46,410 bases of DNA, taken from positions 1-46,410 of IMG/VR virus record IMGVR_UViG_2721755497_000002. One strand, 5' to 3'. Source of the stretch: a virus (taxonomy: Duplodnaviria > Heunggongvirae > Uroviricota > Caudoviricetes). The notes beneath the pieces were generated by a model. It was given only the letters and a program-made list of their open reading frames with translations, was not told the origin of the DNA and did no database searches. Positions 14,692 to 27,978 of this stretch are shown in pieces. Both the position numbers and the translations under genes were made by a program. Within the stretch, counting starts at the first letter, position 1; every line of letters begins with the position of its first letter.

Positions 14692-15747
14692 GTGCGGATA
14701 TTACTTCGACCTGTTCTGGTACCGGAACTCGGGCTGGTGGTCCTTAGGCCGGGCCGTGAATCCATGCAAGTATTTCATAACCCTCGAGTGCTGGTGGAGC
14801 CTGAACCGAAAAGCATGCGCGGTCTGCCGTCCGGAGTCGTCCCTGCCGTTCGCCAGCCGCTGGCGGAGGATAAATCATTACTGCCATTTTTCAGCGATGA
14901 GCGGGTGATTCGTGCTGCTGGCGGCGCTGGGGCACTGTCTGACTGGCTGTTGCGTCATGTCAAATCCTGCCAGTGGCCTCATGGTGACTATCATCACAGT
15001 GAAATCGTCATACATCGTTACGGTACCGGCGCGATGGTGTTGTGCTGGCACTGCGACAACCAGTTGCGTGACCAGACATCCGAATCACTCGGGCAACTTG
15101 CTCATCAAAACCTGTCAGCATGGATGATTGACGTCATCGGTCACGCAATAAGCGGTACGCAGGAGCGTGAATTATCTCTGGCTGAATTATCCTGGTGGGC
15201 GGTCCGCAATCAGGTGGCGGACGCGCTACCGGAAGCGGTATTACGTCGTTCGCTGGGGTTGCGTGCGGAAAAAATCCGTTCAATGTACCGTGAAAGCGAC
15301 ATCGTACCGGGAGAGCAGACCTCCACCAGCATACTGAAGCAGCGCACAAAAAATCTTGCGCCGCTGCCTCACGCCCACCAGCAAAACCCGCCACAGGAAA
15401 AGACGGTGGTCAGCATTGCTGTTGATCCGGAGTCACCGGCTCAGTATCTCCAGCGCCAGAAACCACAACGGGAAGAGATGCCTGTATACACGCGCTGGGT
15501 AAAAACGCAGAAATGCATGACGTGCGGTAATCAGGCAGATGATCCGCATCACATCATTGGTCATGGACTGGGAGGGACGGGAACAAAGGCTGATGATTTG
15601 TTTGTTATTCCGCTGTGCCGTAAATGTCATAACGAACTGCATGCCGGGGTAAAAGATTTTGAAGAAAAACACGGCAGCCAGCTGTTGTTGCTGATTCGTT
15701 TTTTAATGCACGCGAGAAATTCGGGTGTCCTGAAGTGGAAAGCATGA
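14692..15747 (+). CDS. DUF968 protein (YdfU-like; HNH-like zinc finger CMTCGNQADDPHHIIGHG...CRKCHNELH)
   Basis: ORF 14620..15747; probable GTG start at 14692 with GGAGG overlapping upstream stop (alternative ATG 14620); 352 aa. Confidence 0.65.
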   Translation: MRILLRPVLVPELGLVVLRPGRESMQVFHNPRVLVEPEPKSMRGLPSGVVPAVRQPLAEDKSLLPFFSDERVIRAAGGAGALSDWLLRHVKSCQWPHGDYHHSEIVIHRYGTGAMVLCWHCDNQLRDQTSESLGQLAHQNLSAWMIDVIGHAISGTQERELSLAELSWWAVRNQVADALPEAVLRRSLGLRAEKIRSMYRESDIVPGEQTSTSILKQRTKNLAPLPHAHQQNPPQEKTVVSIAVDPESPAQYLQRQKPQREEMPVYTRWVKTQKCMTCGNQADDPHHIIGHGLGGTGTKADDLFVIPLCRKCHNELHAGVKDFEEKHGSQLLLLIRFLMHARNSGVLKWKA

Positions 15748-23498: not shown

Positions 23499-23636
23499 GT
23501 GTTTGATTTTAGCAAACTGATTCGGGAGATTCGAGTGATGGCTGAAAAATTATCCACCTGGAAGTTCATCCTTATCTGGCTGGTGTTTGTGATTATGGCC
23601 TCCGGTTATTTCATCGGTCAGATACGCTGGTGGTGA
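23499..23636 (+). CDS. Possible small membrane protein between endolysin and Rz (45 aa, [45 protein letters not shown])
   Basis: GTG start 5 nt after AGGAG; stop 1 nt before Rz ATG; one predicted TM helix; not in ORF track. Confidence 0.35.
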
Positions 23637-23637
23637 A

Positions 23638-24105
23638 ATGAACCGCGTTCTGTGTGTGATCATCATTGCCCTGCTGGTGGCCTGTGGTGTGCTGTGGGTG
23701 GCAACAGACTATTACCGCGATAATGCCATCACCTACAAGGCGCAGCGCGATAAAAAAGCCAGGGAGCTGCGGCTGGCAAACGCAACCATTACTGACATGC
23801 AGCAGCGTCAGCGTGATGTTGCTGCACTCGATGCAAAATACACAAAGGAGTTAGCCGATGCGAGAGCTGAAAATGAAACTCTGCGCGTTGATGTTGCCGC
23901 TGGTCGTAAGCGCCTGCGGGTCAACGCCACCTGTGTGTCCGCCACAGACAAAAACACCAGAACCGCCAGCGTGGATAATGCAGCCCGCCCCAGACTGGCA
24001 GACGCCGCTGAACGGAATTATTTCACTCTCAGCGACCGGCTGATGACGATGCAGAAGCAGCTGGAAGGGGCGCAGGAATATATCCGCGCTCAGTGCCTGA
24101 AATAA
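23638..24105 (+). CDS. Rz i-spanin
   Basis: 155 aa; N-terminal TM helix, coiled-coil-rich periplasmic domain; Rz1 embedded in +1 frame. Confidence 0.8.
23873..24043 (+). CDS. Rz1 o-spanin lipoprotein (embedded in Rz)
   Basis: Internal Met of ORF 23858..24043: [32 protein letters not shown]... lipobox VVSAC, proline-rich. Confidence 0.7.
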
Positions 24106-25169
24106 GTTTTGCTGATGCGCAGTATCGTCGCCGTATTCCCGCATTAACAGAGACCGCAGCCCTTGCGGGATACTCCTCTGCGCGAGTGTGCGGGAATAAT
24201 CAGAAACGATGCACGCCGGGTTTTGCAGCGCGAACTGAACGGGGCGCGGATTGTACCCTCATAATCGCCCATCCGGTGCGATGGTGGAAGAAACCGGAAT
24301 GATGAATTGTGAATGCAAAATATGGTTCTGCATTGAATAATACTGGCATTGTTTCCTGTTTACATCCAGAACATATTTAAATATGCCTGCCTGGGACAGA
24401 GTAAGATGGCTACGGAAAAAAGGTATGCTACCGGATAAATGTTTTTTGATAACCAGTTTTGTCCAGATATTGTTTGATCTGTGGTTTATATAAACTGGTC
24501 TTTTTTGGGTCTGTACCGTGATCATACTATGGTTATGTGTGGTAAACCGTATATTTCCTGTAGACAGGAAATAAAAACAATGCGAGATATCATTTTTTTT
24601 AAGATAGTCAGTGACGGAAATAATATCGCTATTGTGTGATGAAATAAGCAAGGATATAACAGAGCTAAGCCGGTTGTTCTCTGTGGTGACACAATCTGGT
24701 GGCGATAAATCAGAATGCGTGATGTAAAGATTAAGCATGTAAAACCATGGTGTTTAACTGAAGGTTACTGTGCGGCGGGAAAATAATGAAGTGAAAAGGT
24801 AATGTCTATTTGTTATTTTCGCATGATAAAGCAGAGGTATTATTTTTTTTGCTAATTTATTCTTTTGATATATCTTATCTGTATTTGTGGTTGATTGTAA
24901 ACCACTATTGCAACTGACATCGTCAGCAATGTTGCATACTCATTCAGGTACAACATGGCGTGGAAGAAAGAATGCAGGTATCAAGATATTTGAGTGGATG
25001 ATAAAAAAAGCCGCAGGTGGTATGCGGCATGAAATGGCACGAATTAGTGGATGTATCTTTTCTCGTTTGTATTTTTATCTTATTTCCTGAGGTGTAATCA
25101 ATTCGAAAAATACGTGAGAACAGAGCGTGTATTTTCGACCTTTTTATGGGTCCTCCTGGTGGGGTGGCC

Positions 25170-25200
25170 TGTCCACGGGGCGGGTCGGCGCGGAAAAAGG
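25170..25200. other. Candidate cos site (cosN-like GC-rich patch CACGGGGCGGGTCGGCGCGG in AT-rich DNA, followed by cosB-like sequence)
   Basis: Resembles lambda cosN region (ACGGGGCGGCGACCT ... CGTCAT ... AACTTA ... TGTTTTTA) as recalled; lies about 190 bp upstream of terS. Confidence 0.45.
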
Positions 25201-25381
25201 CGCATTTTTGTGATTTTATCGTCATCATCATCATGTGTGTAACTTATTGTTTTTAATTGTTTTGATGCAAAAAAGATGATGAATGTGGTTGATTTTTGTT
25301 CGATATCTTTGTGGGGGCGGTATTTCTTTACAAAAAAAACAGAGTCACTTCTGTTTTGCGGGTTACGTGGAGGACGTGTAA

Positions 25382-25858
25382 ATGGACGGCGAGCTGAAAA
25401 ATATGAAGTTAAATATTAATCAACTGGCATCCCTTTCAGGCCTGCACCGGCAGACTGTTACCGCAAGAATGGCAGATGTTCCTCTTGCACCAGGCAGCAA
25501 TGAGAAGAAAAAACTTTATTTCCTGACGGATTTGATTACCTCGCTGCTGGAAAAAACACCATCCACCGAAGATGAGGAGATGAATCCACACGATCGCAAG
25601 GCATGGTATCAGTCCGAGCGCGAGCGCCTTAAATTTCAGCATGAAACTGCTCAGCTTGTGCCCGTCAGTGATGTCAGGCGGTCGTTTTCCGTCGTGGTGA
25701 AAGCCATTGTGCAGATACTGGAAACCTGGCCTGACAGGCTGGAAAGGGACAGGGGGTGGACTGCATCACAACTGAACGAAGTGCAGATCGTTGTTGATGA
25801 GATCCGTGACACGCTGGAAAAGGCAGTGATTGCCTGCTGTGATGAGGCTGATATGTGA
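25382..25858 (+). CDS. Terminase small subunit (Nu1-like, winged HTH)
   Basis: 158 aa; GGAGG Shine-Dalgarno; stop overlaps terL start (ATGTGA). Confidence 0.75.
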   Translation: MDGELKNMKLNINQLASLSGLHRQTVTARMADVPLAPGSNEKKKLYFLTDLITSLLEKTPSTEDEEMNPHDRKAWYQSERERLKFQHETAQLVPVSDVRRSFSVVVKAIVQILETWPDRLERDRGWTASQLNEVQIVVDEIRDTLEKAVIACCDEADM

Positions 25859-27978
25859 ATCCGGTTAACGAGTGCCATAGCCGCGCATCCGATATCTGGC
25901 GCGAAGTGGCCTCGCTGTTTCGCCCACCTGGCCGGTTACCTGTGGCGGAAGCCATCAGGCGTTATATGCGGGTACCACGGGGAGCCAATACTTCCGGTCC
26001 GTGGGAGTCATCGCTGACGCCCTATATGATTGACCCCATTAATACATTATCAGCCCGTGAATATGACGCGGTGGTGTTTGTGGGACCGGCGCGAACCGGG
26101 AAAACCGAAGGGCTGATTGATGGCTGGATTGTGTACGGCATCATCTGTGATCCGGCGGATATGCTGGTGGTGCAGATGACCGAGACCAAGGCGCGTGAGC
26201 ATTCCAGAACGCGTCTTTCCAGGACGTTTCGTCACAGCCCGGAGGTCTGCAAACGCCTCAGTCCTTCCCGTAATGACAACAACGTCCACGATAAAATGTT
26301 TCTTGACGGCTCCTTCCTGAAGATTGGCTGGCCGTCGATCACCGTATTTTCCTCTTCGGATTACCGTCGTGTGGCGCTGACGGATTATGACCGTTTTCCT
26401 GAGAACGTTGACGGTGAAGGGGATGCCTTCACCCTGGCATCAAAGCGTACCACCACCTTTATGTCCTCAGGGATGACCCTGGTCGAAAGTTCACCCGGGC
26501 GGGATATCACTGACACCAAATGGCGATGTGGTGGTGCACATGAGGCTCCGCCAACAACGGGGATCCTGTCGCTGTATAACCGGGGAGACCGCCGCCGGTG
26601 GTACTGGCCGTGTCCGCACTGCGGGGAATATTTTCAGCCGGTGATGGATAACATGACCGGCTACCGGAATAACCCCGATTTTGTGGCTGCAGGTCAGGCT
26701 GCCCGTCTGATGTGCCCGCACTGTCGTGGGCTGATTGCCCCGGAGCAGAAACGTGAACTGAATAACCAGGGGATCTGGCTTCGTGAAGGTGAACGGGCGG
26801 CGGCGGACGGCAGTATCACCGGAACACCACGAAATTCCAGGATTGCGTCATTCTGGATGGAGGGTCCGGCTGCGGCGTTTCAGACCTGGGAACAACTGAT
26901 TTTTAAACTGCTGGCGGCAGAAGAAGAGTATGAGCGAACCGGCAGTGAAGAGACCCTGAAAGCGGTGGTGAACACCGATATCGGACGGCCCTATCTGCCC
27001 CGTTCAGCCACGGAACAGCGCAAAAGTGAGCTGCTTGAACAGCGTGCGGAGCCGGTTCCACGGCGATGTGTGCCGGATGGCGTGCGCTTCATTGAGGCAA
27101 CAGTGGACGTACAGGGCGGTAAAAACAGACGTTTTGTGGTGCAGATCACCGGATACGGAGAACAGGGAGAACGCTGGATTGTTGATCGCTACAACATCCG
27201 GCATTCACTGCGATGCAGTCCCAACGGTGAAAGTCTGCTGGTTGATCCGGCGGCATATCCGGAGGACTGGGATTTGTTGCTGACGGATGTGTTCCATAAA
27301 ACATGGCCGCTGGCGTCTGATCCGGATGTGCGCATGCGGCTGATGGCCATGGCGGTGGATACGGGCGGTGAAGCCGGGGTGACGGATAACGCCTATCGTT
27401 TCTGGCGGCAGTGCCGCCGCGAAGGGCTGGGTAACCGGGTGTTTCTGTTCAAGGGTGATGGCCTGCGTCGCGACAGACTGATTAACCGTACTTTCCCGGA
27501 TAACACCGGCAGAAGTGCCCGCCGTGCCAGGGCCAGCGGTGATGTTGCCCTGTGGCTGGTGCAGACCGATGCGTTTAAGGACCGGGTGAATAATGCCCTG
27601 TGGCGTGACACACCTGGGCCTAACTATATCCACTTTCCCGACTGGCTGGGGCGGTGGTTTTTCGATGAACTGACCTATGAGGAGCGCGGCAGTGACGGAA
27701 AATGGCGAAAACCGGGCAGGGGCGCTAACGAAGCGTTTGACCTGCTGGTCTACGCGGATGCGCTTGCCGTTCTGCATGGTTACGAAAAGATCCGCTGGTC
27801 GTCTGCACCTGACTGGGCACAACGGGAAACGTGGCTTGTCGGTCCGGAGGAGCGTTCAGGGCTGACAACATCACGGGCGCTGCCGGGAAGGAAAGAAAAA
27901 CGCCGTCACCGGCAGGAAAAGCTGCGCACAGAGCGTGCAGAGGATAATCCGTGGATAACATCAGGAGGCTGGTTGTGA
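25855..27978 (+). CDS. Terminase large subunit (lambda gpA-like)
   Basis: 707 aa; Walker A VGPARTGKT; lambda A-like length and order. Confidence 0.9.
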   Translation: MNPVNECHSRASDIWREVASLFRPPGRLPVAEAIRRYMRVPRGANTSGPWESSLTPYMIDPINTLSAREYDAVVFVGPARTGKTEGLIDGWIVYGIICDPADMLVVQMTETKAREHSRTRLSRTFRHSPEVCKRLSPSRNDNNVHDKMFLDGSFLKIGWPSITVFSSSDYRRVALTDYDRFPENVDGEGDAFTLASKRTTTFMSSGMTLVESSPGRDITDTKWRCGGAHEAPPTTGILSLYNRGDRRRWYWPCPHCGEYFQPVMDNMTGYRNNPDFVAAGQAARLMCPHCRGLIAPEQKRELNNQGIWLREGERAAADGSITGTPRNSRIASFWMEGPAAAFQTWEQLIFKLLAAEEEYERTGSEETLKAVVNTDIGRPYLPRSATEQRKSELLEQRAEPVPRRCVPDGVRFIEATVDVQGGKNRRFVVQITGYGEQGERWIVDRYNIRHSLRCSPNGESLLVDPAAYPEDWDLLLTDVFHKTWPLASDPDVRMRLMAMAVDTGGEAGVTDNAYRFWRQCRREGLGNRVFLFKGDGLRRDRLINRTFPDNTGRSARRARASGDVALWLVQTDAFKDRVNNALWRDTPGPNYIHFPDWLGRWFFDELTYEERGSDGKWRKPGRGANEAFDLLVYADALAVLHGYEKIRWSSAPDWAQRETWLVGPEERSGLTTSRALPGRKEKRRHRQEKLRTERAEDNPWITSGGWL

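What the first reader, a model, noticed from the sequence alone, without database searches (positions are those of the whole stretch)
24110..25381. 1.2-kb AT-rich non-coding stretch with a perfect palindrome and a lambda-like cos site; no bor
No credible ORF lies between Rz and terS; the track ORFs there are low-complexity. The stretch contains a perfect inverted repeat TATTTCCTGT-AG-ACAGGAAATA at about 24551-24572 and, near 25170-25200, a GC-rich patch CACGGGGCGGGTCGGCGCGG followed by CGTCATCATCAT...AACTTATTGTTTTTAATTG. The latter parallels lambda cosN and the start of cosB as recalled, implying cos packaging with a 12-nt cohesive end around GGGCGGGTCGGC. The bor gene found here in lambda is absent.
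Basis: partly seen in the sequence, partly recalled or inferred. Interest (0 to 1): 0.35.

Follow-up and report, generated by a model that had tools for sequence, protein, structure and literature searches.

The report
Lambda-type cos site plus DUF1398 gene
The gap between the lysis genes and the terminase genes of this E. coli prophage holds an ordinary lambda-type DNA-packaging (cos) site, but it is not empty: it also carries a real reverse-strand gene of unknown function, and the "perfect palindrome" is just a coincidence of that gene's codons.

Summary
The window is a lambdoid prophage of mouse E. coli M1/M3. The cos call is right. cosQ GGGTCCT lies at 25148-25154, then a 23-nt spacer as in lambda, then ACG|GGGCGG at 25175-25183. 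A cosB follows with R3, an IHF site, inverted R2 and R1, upstream of a DUF1441-type small terminase and a gpA-type large terminase. The layout is conserved in mEp460, mEp213, VT1-Sakai, Stx2 phages and Fels-1. A natural hybrid in E. coli M8 switches from window-type to lambda-type sequence inside cosN.

bor is absent, as claimed. "Non-coding" is wrong. 24259-24738 (minus strand) encodes a 159-aa DUF1398 protein (Pfam E 5e-21, dN/dS about 0.16), a distant homologue of lambda lambdap78 and K-12 YbcV in the same position. It sits in a 701-bp AT-rich cassette that is an indel relative to a sister prophage.

The palindrome is real but encodes YFLSTGNI, the family's conserved motif, and synonymous changes degrade it in relatives.

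The overhang may be 11 or 12 nt. The first 185 nt (24115-24298) are GC-rich. They form a sharply bounded block shared with lambda, with covariation suggesting an undescribed structured RNA. Overall this is an ordinary member of a known kind.

The parts
23638..24105 (+). Rz spanin gene (Rz1 embedded at 23858-24043); left boundary of the region
   Evidence: Pfam Phage_lysis E 2.6e-48; ORF list; PGAP 'lysis protein'
24115..24298 (+). GC-rich, sharply bounded conserved block of about 185 nt. It is shared with lambda (46876 to about 47040), DLP12, mEp460, VT1-Sakai and Stx2 phages. It is a candidate structured RNA of the late transcript, not coding.
   Evidence: Homology. Alignment A1. In one search, 97.3% of cells are paired against 37-59% when the partners are slid, and 5 pairs show compensatory changes. 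G.U occurs at 18 pair positions against A.C at 3. Indels are not multiples of 3. No Rfam match. Against: the MFE z-score is only -0.43.
24259..24738 (-). DUF1398 family gene (159 aa), a moron-type accessory gene. It is homologous to lambda lambdap78, K-12 YbcV and YdfO.
   Evidence: Pfam PF07166 E 4.7e-21, 75.5 bits against a cut-off of 22. PGAP WP_073520605.1. PDB 2HH8 YdfO E 6.8e-8. 26% identity, E 1e-11, to lambdap78. dN/dS 0.16 against the CFE299 homologue. 11 close homologues, all E. coli.
24552..24573 (.). Perfect 10+2+10 palindrome, formed by the codons TAT TTC CTG TCT ACA GGA AAT ATA (YFLSTGNI) of the DUF1398 gene. A coding coincidence.
   Evidence: I17. Frame and codons. Arm complementarity is 8/10 in the 85%-identical homologue and 7/10 in lambda and DLP12. 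It is 9/10 in the 96.8%-identical M8 copy, by my reading of the codons printed.
24300..25000 (.). 701-bp AT-rich cassette (most of the DUF1398 gene plus its upstream region). It is an indel relative to the E. coli 2012C-4221 prophage, which has 19 bp here.
   Evidence: BLAST block structure; GC 31-40%; the upstream part occurs in only 34 of 5426 E. coli genomes; weak minus-strand promoter-like sites at 24808-24780 and 24901-24872
25003..25028 (-). Intrinsic-terminator-like hairpin GCCGCATACCACCTGCGGC followed by T7, on the minus strand
   Evidence: fold -10.1 kcal/mol
25103..25145 (+). Hairpin followed by a T-run immediately upstream of cosQ. Relatives have a different hairpin plus T-run at the same place.
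   Evidence: Fold -11.2 kcal/mol; alignment of relatives
25148..25154 (+). cosQ heptamer GGGTCCT (packaging-termination signal)
   Evidence: Identical to lambda 48473-48479. The 23-nt spacer to GGGCGG equals lambda's. Invariant in the 22 related sequences aligned. Role of cosQ from PMC4669245.
25175..25194 (+). cosN. The predicted top-strand nick is between 25177 and 25178 (ACG|GGGCGG). The bottom-strand nick is 11 or 12 nt to the right, giving a cohesive end of GGGCGGGTCGG(C). The right flank is (G)CGCGG.
   Evidence: Alignment with lambda; family alignment; M8 hybrid junction inside it; length statistics; literature on cosN (PMC4669245, PMC12315714)
25195..25217 (+). A5/T5-tract spacer between cosN and cosB, in the position of lambda's I2 segment
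   Evidence: Conserved AAAAAGGC..TTTTTG in all relatives; the I2 role is by analogy only (PMC4669245)
25218..25233 (+). R3-like small-terminase binding site CGTCATCATCATCATG
   Evidence: It co-varies with R2 and R1 between subfamilies (ATCATCATC against TCATCACCAC).
25240..25252 (-). I1-like IHF site AAACAATAAGTTA (12 of 13 matches to WATCAANNNNTTR)
   Evidence: On my reading of the alignment, the mEp460-type and L101-type relatives have a perfect consensus at the same place. 17 of 20 positions match lambda I1.
25270..25285 (-). R2-like site, inverted relative to R3 (AAAGATGATGAATGTG on the + strand)
   Evidence: Inverted repeat I6
25298..25311 (+). R1-like site GTTCGATATCTTTG (degenerate here; clearer in Fels-1 as GTTCATCATCTTCG)
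   Evidence: the weakest of the assignments
25382..25858 (+). Small terminase subunit, DUF1441 type (not Nu1 type)
   Evidence: Pfam PF07278 E 1.7e-48; phrog_141 'terminase small subunit' E 1.2e-63; BLASTP against Nu1 E 0.088
25855..27978 (+). Large terminase subunit, lambda gpA family (ATPase plus endonuclease)
   Evidence: Pfam GpA_ATPase E 1.6e-80 and GpA_nuclease E 2.7e-84

Best explanation
The interval between Rz and terS has four parts.

(1) 24115-24298 is a conserved GC-rich block that belongs to the backbone of Escherichia lambdoid phages.

(2) About 24300-25000 is an AT-rich accessory ('moron') cassette. Its minus-strand gene (24259-24738) encodes a DUF1398 protein, the same family lambda (lambdap78) and DLP12 (ybcV) carry at this position. 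It is probably transcribed leftward from its own promoter independently of the late operon (inferred). Its biochemical function is unknown.

(3) 25001-25147 is a short pre-cos segment with terminator-like hairpins.

(4) 25148 to about 25311 is a complete lambda-type cohesive-end site.

By analogy with lambda, packaging would work as follows. The DUF1441 small terminase binds R3, R2 and R1 of cosB. IHF bends the DNA at I1 so that R3 and the inverted R2 are presented together. This positions the gpA-type large terminase to make staggered nicks at cosN, on the top strand after ACG at 25177 and on the bottom strand 11-12 nt to the right. The DNA is then packaged rightward. cosQ (GGGTCCT) is the signal that allows nicking at the next cos to terminate packaging. 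Virion DNA should therefore carry 5' single-stranded ends beginning GGGCGGGTCGG(C).

Shown here: the sequence elements, their spacing, their conservation and the protein families. Inferred: the nick positions, overhang length, protein binding and expression of the DUF1398 gene.
For: cos:
- Exact lambda cosQ heptamer, with the same 23-nt spacer to GGGCGG (one match in the window, none in 100 shuffles).
- The 9-mer ACGGGGCGG and 17 of 20 positions of I1 are shared with lambda.
- The whole cosQ-cosN-spacer-R3-I1-R2-R1 layout is conserved in 22 related sequences next to DUF1441 terS genes, in mEp213 and in Salmonella Fels-1. The R-site sequence co-varies between subfamilies.
- The IHF consensus matches 12 of 13 here and is perfect in two sister subfamilies on my reading of the alignment.
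- TerL is gpA family.
- The E. coli M8 prophage is 96.8% identical to the window up to 25183, then switches to lambda-type cosB and Nu1. The mosaic joint is therefore inside cosN.
- The mEp460_4F5 record begins CCACGGGGCGGG, 4 nt before the predicted nick.
- Literature: lambda-like cos sites keep cosQ and bp 1-6 and vary freely at bp 7-12 (PMC4669245). The end of mEp213/LLS was inferred as GGGCGGCGCGCT (PMC12315714).

DUF1398 gene: Pfam 75.5 bits, PGAP annotation, PDB YdfO, homology and synteny with lambdap78 and ybcV, dN/dS 0.16.

Cassette indel.
Against: - There are no virion-end data for this phage or any close relative, so the nick positions are by analogy only.
- The overall local alignment score against lambda cos is only about 2.9 sd above shuffles, and the best shuffle exceeded it. 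The case rests on motifs and family conservation, not on global similarity.
- The right flank CGCGG is 11 nt, not 12 nt, from the left nick. Relatives range from 9 to 12. The cohesive-end length is therefore uncertain.
- R1 is degenerate in the window.
- TerS is not Nu1 family, so the R-site assignments are not backed by any binding data.
- Whether the prophage is inducible was not assessed.
- The DUF1398 promoter predictions are no better than chance (4 promoter-like sites found against 3.4 expected).
Confidence: 0.82

Rival explanations
1. The cos-like sequence is a relic in a defective prophage. It is recognisable by descent but no longer used for packaging.
For: Many E. coli lambdoid prophages are cryptic; DLP12 keeps a Nu1 remnant, nohD. 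Inducibility was not tested here. R1 is degenerate.
Against: terS and terL are full-length with strong family scores. cosQ, the left half of cosN, R3, I1 and R2 are all intact and match active phages such as mEp460, mEp213 and the Stx phages. The locus is identical in two strains and 96.8% identical in a third.
Confidence: 0.1
2. The perfect palindrome at 24552-24573 is a functional DNA site, such as an operator or a binding site for a dimeric regulator, embedded in the gene.
For: It is exact, 10+10 bp, and locally unexpected: 0.02 expected in the region.
Against: It is in frame with, and fully explained by, the codons for the conserved DUF1398 motif YFLSTGNI. The same peptide is encoded with synonymous changes that break the symmetry: 9/10 in the 96.8%-identical M8 copy (my count), 8/10 in CFE299, and 7/10 in lambda and DLP12. 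A 2-nt loop cannot form a hairpin. It lies mid-gene, far from any promoter.
Confidence: 0.03
3. The stretch is non-coding AT-rich spacer, and the 159-codon ORF is spurious.
For: The composition is AT-rich and fairly low in complexity. No strong Shine-Dalgarno sequence was seen by eye upstream of the ATG at 24738. There are no NCBIfam or PADLOC hits.
Against: The Pfam hit is 53 bits above its cut-off. A solved homologue exists. dN/dS is 0.16, with 32.5 synonymous against 23.5 non-synonymous differences. The ORF is kept in 11 distinct homologues. It is syntenic with lambdap78 and ybcV.
Confidence: 0.03
4. Packaging uses a different end type, such as a 3' overhang or pac/headful, and the resemblance to lambda cos is misleading.
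For: TerS belongs to a different family (DUF1441) from Nu1. The spacing in cosN differs by 1 nt from lambda.
Against: TerL is of the gpA type, with both domains. By Casjens' terminase classification, as cited in PMC12315714, that type goes with 5' cohesive ends. cosQ and the left nick context are identical to lambda. The M8 hybrid joins this left half to a lambda right half.
Confidence: 0.02

Closest known systems
Bacteriophage lambda cos (cosQ-cosN-cosB; Feiss laboratory; PMC4669245, PMC9026076)
   Same: Identical cosQ heptamer, and an identical 23-nt distance from cosQ to the first G of the cohesive end. The left nick context ACG|GGGCGG is identical. A CGCGG right flank is present. cosB has R3, an IHF site (17 of 20 positions identical to I1), an inverted R2, and R1. 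The large terminase is gpA family. The site lies just upstream of terS.
   Different: All six positions 7-12 of the cohesive end differ (GTCGGC against CGACCT). The right flank is 1 nt closer. The spacer is A5/T5-rich instead of lambda's I2 sequence. I1 is 11 bp closer to cosN. The R sites are ATCATCATC-like rather than lambda's. The small terminase is DUF1441, not Nu1.
Putative cos of mEp213 / LLS (end GGGCGGCGCGCT; PMC12315714, citing Vahanian et al. 2017 and M. Feiss), and the cos regions of mEp460, VT1-Sakai (Sp15), Stx2_95 and Fels-1
   Same: Same DUF1441-type TerS, and the same cos subfamily: GGGTCCTCC.GG..GGGTGG(G)CCTG..CACG|GGGCGG...CGCGG. The R3-I1-R2-R1 order is the same. The region from cos to terS is 86-88% identical to VT1-Sakai and the Stx2 phages.
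   Different: The core sequence and length differ: window GGGCGGGTCGG (11 nt to CGCGG), mEp213 and mEp460 12 nt, Stx2_95 10 nt, mEp460_4F5 9 nt. Those phages have no DUF1398 cassette upstream of cos. Fels-1 has GGTACTC where cosQ would be.
Lambda lambdap78 / E. coli K-12 YbcV (DLP12) and YdfO (Qin; PDB 2HH8), Pfam DUF1398
   Same: Same Pfam family. Same position and orientation: minus strand, between the lysis genes and cos. The same conserved block lies at its 3' side.
   Different: Only 26% identical to lambdap78. The N-terminal 40 residues are unrelated. This is a rare subfamily (11 close homologues, all E. coli). bor and the ybcW/lambdap79 gene that accompany it in lambda and DLP12 are missing here.

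Membership tests
Lambda-like cos site | 7-bp cosQ (GGGTCCT) about 23 nt upstream of the cohesive-end sequence | tested here: met
   25148-25154; the spacer is 23 nt as in lambda
Lambda-like cos site | [quoted passage not shown] | tested here: met
   ACG|GGGCGG at 25175-25183
Lambda-like cos site | CG 5' of the bottom-strand nick, 12 bp from the top-strand nick (right flank CGCGG) | tested here: inconclusive
   CGCGG is present but starts 11 nt, not 12 nt, after the left nick. Relatives show 9-12 nt, with a compensating cosQ spacer.
Lambda-like cos site | 12-nt 5' single-stranded extensions on virion DNA | not testable with these tools
   No virion-end data. The mEp460_4F5 record starts 4 nt before the predicted nick, which is suggestive only.
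Lambda-like cos site | cosB with small-terminase sites R3, R2 (inverted) and R1, and an IHF site between R3 and R2 | tested here: met
   By sequence only: 25218-25233, 25240-25252, 25270-25285, 25298-25311. Conserved and co-varying in relatives. Binding was not tested.
Lambda-like cos site | Adjacent gpA-family large terminase | tested here: met
   GpA_ATPase and GpA_nuclease, E 1e-80 or better
Lambda-like cos site | Nu1-family small terminase (true of lambda, 21, phi80 and Gifsy-1, but not part of the definition of the site) | tested here: not met
   The TerS is DUF1441. BLASTP against Nu1 gives E 0.088.
DUF1398 (PF07166) | Score above the Pfam gathering threshold across the domain | tested here: met
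   75.5 bits against a cut-off of 22; profile positions 15-117 of 119. PDB 2HH8 E 6.8e-8.
DUF1398 (PF07166) | Evolves as a protein-coding gene | tested here: met
   dN/dS 0.16 and 0.15 in two comparisons
bor (lambda serum-resistance lipoprotein) | Bor homologue between Rz and cos | tested here: not met
   tblastn of lambda Bor against the whole window: best E 0.33
Known RNA families (Rfam 15) | Covariance-model match in 23500-26000 | tested here: not met
   No match at E up to 1. Only chance-level matches at E up to 10 on the block.

The most novel reading that the evidence does not exclude
It is present in lambda itself (about 46876-47040, between bor and lambdap78), in DLP12, mEp460, VT1-Sakai and the Stx2 phages, and in 764 of 5426 complete E. 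coli genomes. Its boundaries are sharp and it has six helices.

In favour: pairing is kept by compensatory and G.U changes that work only on the + strand. Against: its folding energy is no better than shuffled sequence. Its spread is essentially one genus, so the covariation comes from few events. It could instead be a DNA-level element or a recombination 'joint'.
Probability: 0.4. Interest if true: 0.5.

Novelty: new member of a known kind. Interest (0 to 1): 0.22.

Why it matters
For annotation, this fixes the packaging site and the predicted genome ends of this prophage family. It also corrects an empty-looking interval into a gene plus defined cis elements.

For terminase biology, the DUF1441-type phages offer a natural series. 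The distance between the two conserved nick contexts varies from 9 to 12 nt while the distance from cosQ to the right flank stays at 34-35. The M8 hybrid shows that cos halves of two specificity groups can be joined inside cosN. Both points bear on how gpA-type terminases measure their cuts.

None of this changes the picture of lambda-type packaging. The only item with real upside is the conserved block after Rz.

Tried and rejected
- Rfam over 23500-26000 and over the block alone: nothing.
- The search for related loci with the TerS protein in genome contigs: no confirmed relatives.
- Global and local alignment with lambda cos: z only about 2.9, so it was not used as the main argument.
- Single-sequence folding of the block: z -0.43 on the + strand and -1.47 on the - strand, not significant. 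The RNAalifold consensus put one helix in the wrong register, so I named the structure myself.
- Promoter and terminator scans: promoter hits are at chance level.
- PADLOC and NCBIfam for the DUF1398 protein: no hits.
- The + strand ORF 24093-24302 matches phrog_6954 'Rz-like spanin'. I rejected it as coding because homologues differ by indels that are not multiples of three.
- The other local ORFs (24887-25090 +, 24944-25234 -) have no family hits.
- HnrS, a 66-nt EHEC prophage sRNA, was considered for the block. I rejected it on size, terminator and distribution.
- Vahanian et al. 2017 (the cosN natural-history paper) could not be read. I therefore cannot say whether the length variation is already described.
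- Literature searches on DUF1398, DUF1441 and ybcV gave no functional information.
- One search was a mis-aimed search (Bor against the phage collection). It shows only that bor occurs in 195 phage records.

Full report
**Source and context**

The 1.3-kb interval is 100% identical to a chromosomal prophage of the mouse E. coli strains M1 and M3. RefSeq annotates, in order:
- a class II holin, a lysozyme and a lysis protein (Rz);
- a DUF1398 family protein on the opposite strand;
- a DUF1441 family protein and a large terminase.

My own scans agree. Rz is at 23638-24105 (Pfam Phage_lysis). The small terminase is at 25382-25858 (DUF1441; PHROG 'terminase small subunit'). The large terminase is at 25855-27978, with both gpA domains.

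**Checking the observation**

- The palindrome is exact, at 24552-24573.
- The low GC content (31-40%) holds only for about 24300-25100. The first 190 nt are 55% GC.
- 'No credible ORF' fails, as shown next.

**The DUF1398 gene**

The minus-strand ORF 24259-24738 (159 aa) matches Pfam DUF1398 at 75.5 bits, against a cut-off of 22. It matches the solved YdfO protein 2HH8. It is 26% identical (E 1e-11) to lambda lambdap78.

lambdap78 lies in the same place and orientation, between the lysis genes and cos. So does ybcV in the K-12 DLP12 prophage.

Against an 85%-identical homologue, the gene shows 32.5 synonymous and 23.5 non-synonymous differences, giving dN/dS of 0.16. It is therefore a real gene. 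It has only 11 close relatives, all from E. coli. It has no defence-system or NCBIfam match, and no paper I found gives a function.

**The palindrome**

On the coding strand the palindrome reads TAT TTC CTG TCT ACA GGA AAT ATA, in frame, encoding YFLSTGNI. This is the family's most conserved motif (YYLATDNI in lambda and YbcV).

Arm complementarity in other copies of the gene:

| Copy | Arm complementarity |
|---|---|
| M8 (96.8% identical) | 9/10 (one synonymous change; my count) |
| CFE299 homologue (same peptide, three synonymous changes) | 8/10 |
| lambda and DLP12 | 7/10 |

The symmetry is therefore not maintained at the DNA level. A 2-nt loop also cannot form a hairpin. I conclude it is a coding coincidence, although a perfect 10+10 repeat is locally unlikely (0.02 expected).

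**The AT-rich part is a cassette**

The E. coli 2012C-4221 prophage matches the window up to 24299 and again from 25001. It has 19 bp in place of 24300-25000.

VT1-Sakai and Stx2_95 go from the 24115-24298 block almost directly to cos. The upstream half of the cassette occurs in only 34 of 5426 complete E. coli genomes.

bor, ybcW/lambdap79 and ylcI have no counterpart in this interval; a weak ylcI match (E 0.012) lies elsewhere in the window, near 15058-15132. The 'no bor' statement is therefore right.

**cos: the elements**

GGGTCCT at 25148-25154 is the exact lambda cosQ heptamer (lambda 48473-48479). It is followed by 23 nt and then GGGCGG, the same spacing as in lambda. The composite pattern occurs once in the window and never in 100 shuffles.

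ACGGGGCGG and the CGCGG flank are shared with lambda. TAACTTATTGTTTTTAATTG matches lambda I1 at 17 of 20 positions.

**cos: family conservation**

A pattern scan of viral contigs returned many lambda-type sites, plus a distinct subfamily that sits upstream of DUF1441 terS genes.

An alignment of 22 such sequences shows several invariant or near-invariant elements:
- GGGTCCTCC;
- CACGGGGCGG;
- GCGCGGAAAAAGGC;
- TTTTTG;
- a TCATCA-type R3;
- an ATTG core of the IHF site;
- an inverted R2 and a direct R1.

The IHF consensus WATCAANNNNTTR matches 12 of 13 positions in the window. On my reading of the alignment it is perfect in two sister subfamilies.

R3, R2 and R1 change together between subfamilies (ATCATCATC against TCATCACCAC). 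That is what binding sites for a co-evolving small terminase should do.

mEp213 has the same TerS type. Its cos reads ...CCACG|GGGCGGCGCGCT|CGCGGG. This is the end that Feiss inferred for mEp213 and LLS (PMC12315714). Salmonella Fels-1 shows the same R3-I1-R2-R1 order very clearly.

The literature fits this pattern. In lambda-like phages, cosQ and bp 1-6 of the cohesive end are conserved, while bp 7-12 vary freely (PMC4669245).

**A natural hybrid supports the position of cosN**

The E. coli M8 prophage is 96.8% identical to the window up to 25183. It then continues with lambda-type sequence: AAGGCGCGCGGGTTTTCGCTATTTATG..., lambda cosB and a Nu1 protein. The joint lies inside the cohesive-end sequence.

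**What stays open for cos**

With lambda's geometry the end would be the 12-mer GGGCGGGTCGGC. However, the conserved right flank CGCGG begins 11 nt after the left nick, so an 11-nt end GGGCGGGTCGG would keep CG 5' of both nicks.

Across 121 distinct contexts, the distance from ACG| to |CGCGG was distributed as follows:

| Distance (nt) | Contexts |
|---|---|
| 12 | 94 |
| 11 | 14 |
| 10 | 12 |
| 9 | 1 |

The spacer from cosQ to GGGCGG compensates: 22 nt goes with 12, 24 with 10, and 23 or 24 with 11. The distance from cosQ to CGCGG therefore stays at 34-35 (lambda 35, window 34). I could not read Vahanian et al. 2017, so I do not know whether this is already described. No virion-end data exist for this group. 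The mEp460_4F5 record merely begins 4 nt before the predicted nick.

**The first 185 nt (24115-24298)**

This is not AT-rich spacer. It is a sharply bounded block found in about 49 distinct lambdoid loci. These include lambda (46876 to about 47040), DLP12, mEp460, VT1-Sakai and Stx2 phages, with or without a DUF1398 gene beside it.

It is not coding, because homologues differ by 1-2-nt indels. PHROGs nevertheless holds an ORF family over it, labelled 'Rz-like spanin'.

I tested a six-helix structure on 27 distinct sequences:
- 97.3% of cells pair, against 37-59% when the 3' partners are slid.
- Five pairs show changes on both sides. Examples are CCCGCA/TGCGGG becoming CCCGGA/TCCGGG in lambda, and TCCGGT/ACCGGA becoming TCCTGT/ACAGGA in mEp460.
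- No shuffle reaches the observed covariation score.

G.U pairs occur at 18 pair positions, against A.C at 3. Transitions in unpaired columns are balanced. Together these point to an RNA constraint on the + strand, which is the late-transcript sense.

Several points count against this reading:
- The folding energy is not better than shuffles.
- The structure was derived from these same sequences.
- The element is essentially confined to Escherichia.
- Rfam has no such family.

I treat it as a candidate, not a finding.

**Verdict**

The locus is an ordinary new member of a known kind.

Noticed in passing
window 24115-24298 (lambda NC_001416 about 46876-47040; DLP12 between borD and ybcV): A sharply bounded GC-rich block of about 185 nt is conserved in many Escherichia lambdoid phages, including lambda. 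Compensatory and + strand-only G.U changes preserve six helices. It has no Rfam family and is not coding. One contig (L021) carries two copies about 950 nt apart.
   Followed up: partly
L252 (E. coli M8, NZ_CP010191.1), locus positions about 2550-2800, against window 25148-25190: A natural hybrid cos. [quoted passage not shown] From inside the cohesive-end sequence onward it is lambda-type cosB with a Nu1 small terminase.
   Followed up: yes
window 25175-25194 and 121 related cos contexts in loci L010-L251: The distance between the two conserved nick contexts (ACG| and |CGCGG) varies from 9 to 12 nt among phages with DUF1441-type TerS. The cosQ spacer varies inversely, so the distance from cosQ to the right flank stays at 34-35 nt. 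This implies either variable overhang length or a cut measured from one side only.
   Followed up: partly
L038, L045, L057, L063, L084, L085, L120 (IMG/VR contigs): The same DUF1441-type cosQ-cosN-R3-I1-R2 module occurs without a DUF1441 terS downstream; other genes follow instead. Some contigs carry two or three cos copies. These may be satellite or PICI-like elements that borrow this packaging specificity, or assembly concatemers.
   Followed up: no
window 25003-25028 (minus strand) and 25103-25145 (plus strand): There is a minus-strand terminator-like hairpin with a T7 run, and a plus-strand hairpin plus T-run ending 2 nt before cosQ. Relatives have unrelated hairpin plus T-run sequences at the same spot, as does lambda (TGATAATCATTATCA). 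This suggests a conserved need to stop unmodified transcription from entering cos.
   Followed up: partly
window 24093-24302 (+): A 69-codon ORF over the conserved block matches phrog_6954, labelled 'Rz-like spanin' (E 4.6e-21). The label looks like an annotation artefact propagated from ORF calls on a non-coding conserved block.
   Followed up: partly
L006/L007 (Escherichia virus mEp460_4F5, LR595868.1): The deposited linear record ends ...GGTGGGGTGGCCTG and starts CCACGGGGCGGG. It is therefore cut 4 nt left of the predicted top-strand nick. Its cosN core is the shortest seen (9 nt to CGCGG).
   Followed up: no
L139, L143, L138 (genome-contig hits in Pseudomonas, Thiomicrorhabdus and a Nanosynbacter MAG): Short contigs (351 bp, 468 bp and about 4 kb) in non-enteric assemblies carry the lambda-type block motif. 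They are probably lambda control-DNA contamination.
   Followed up: no
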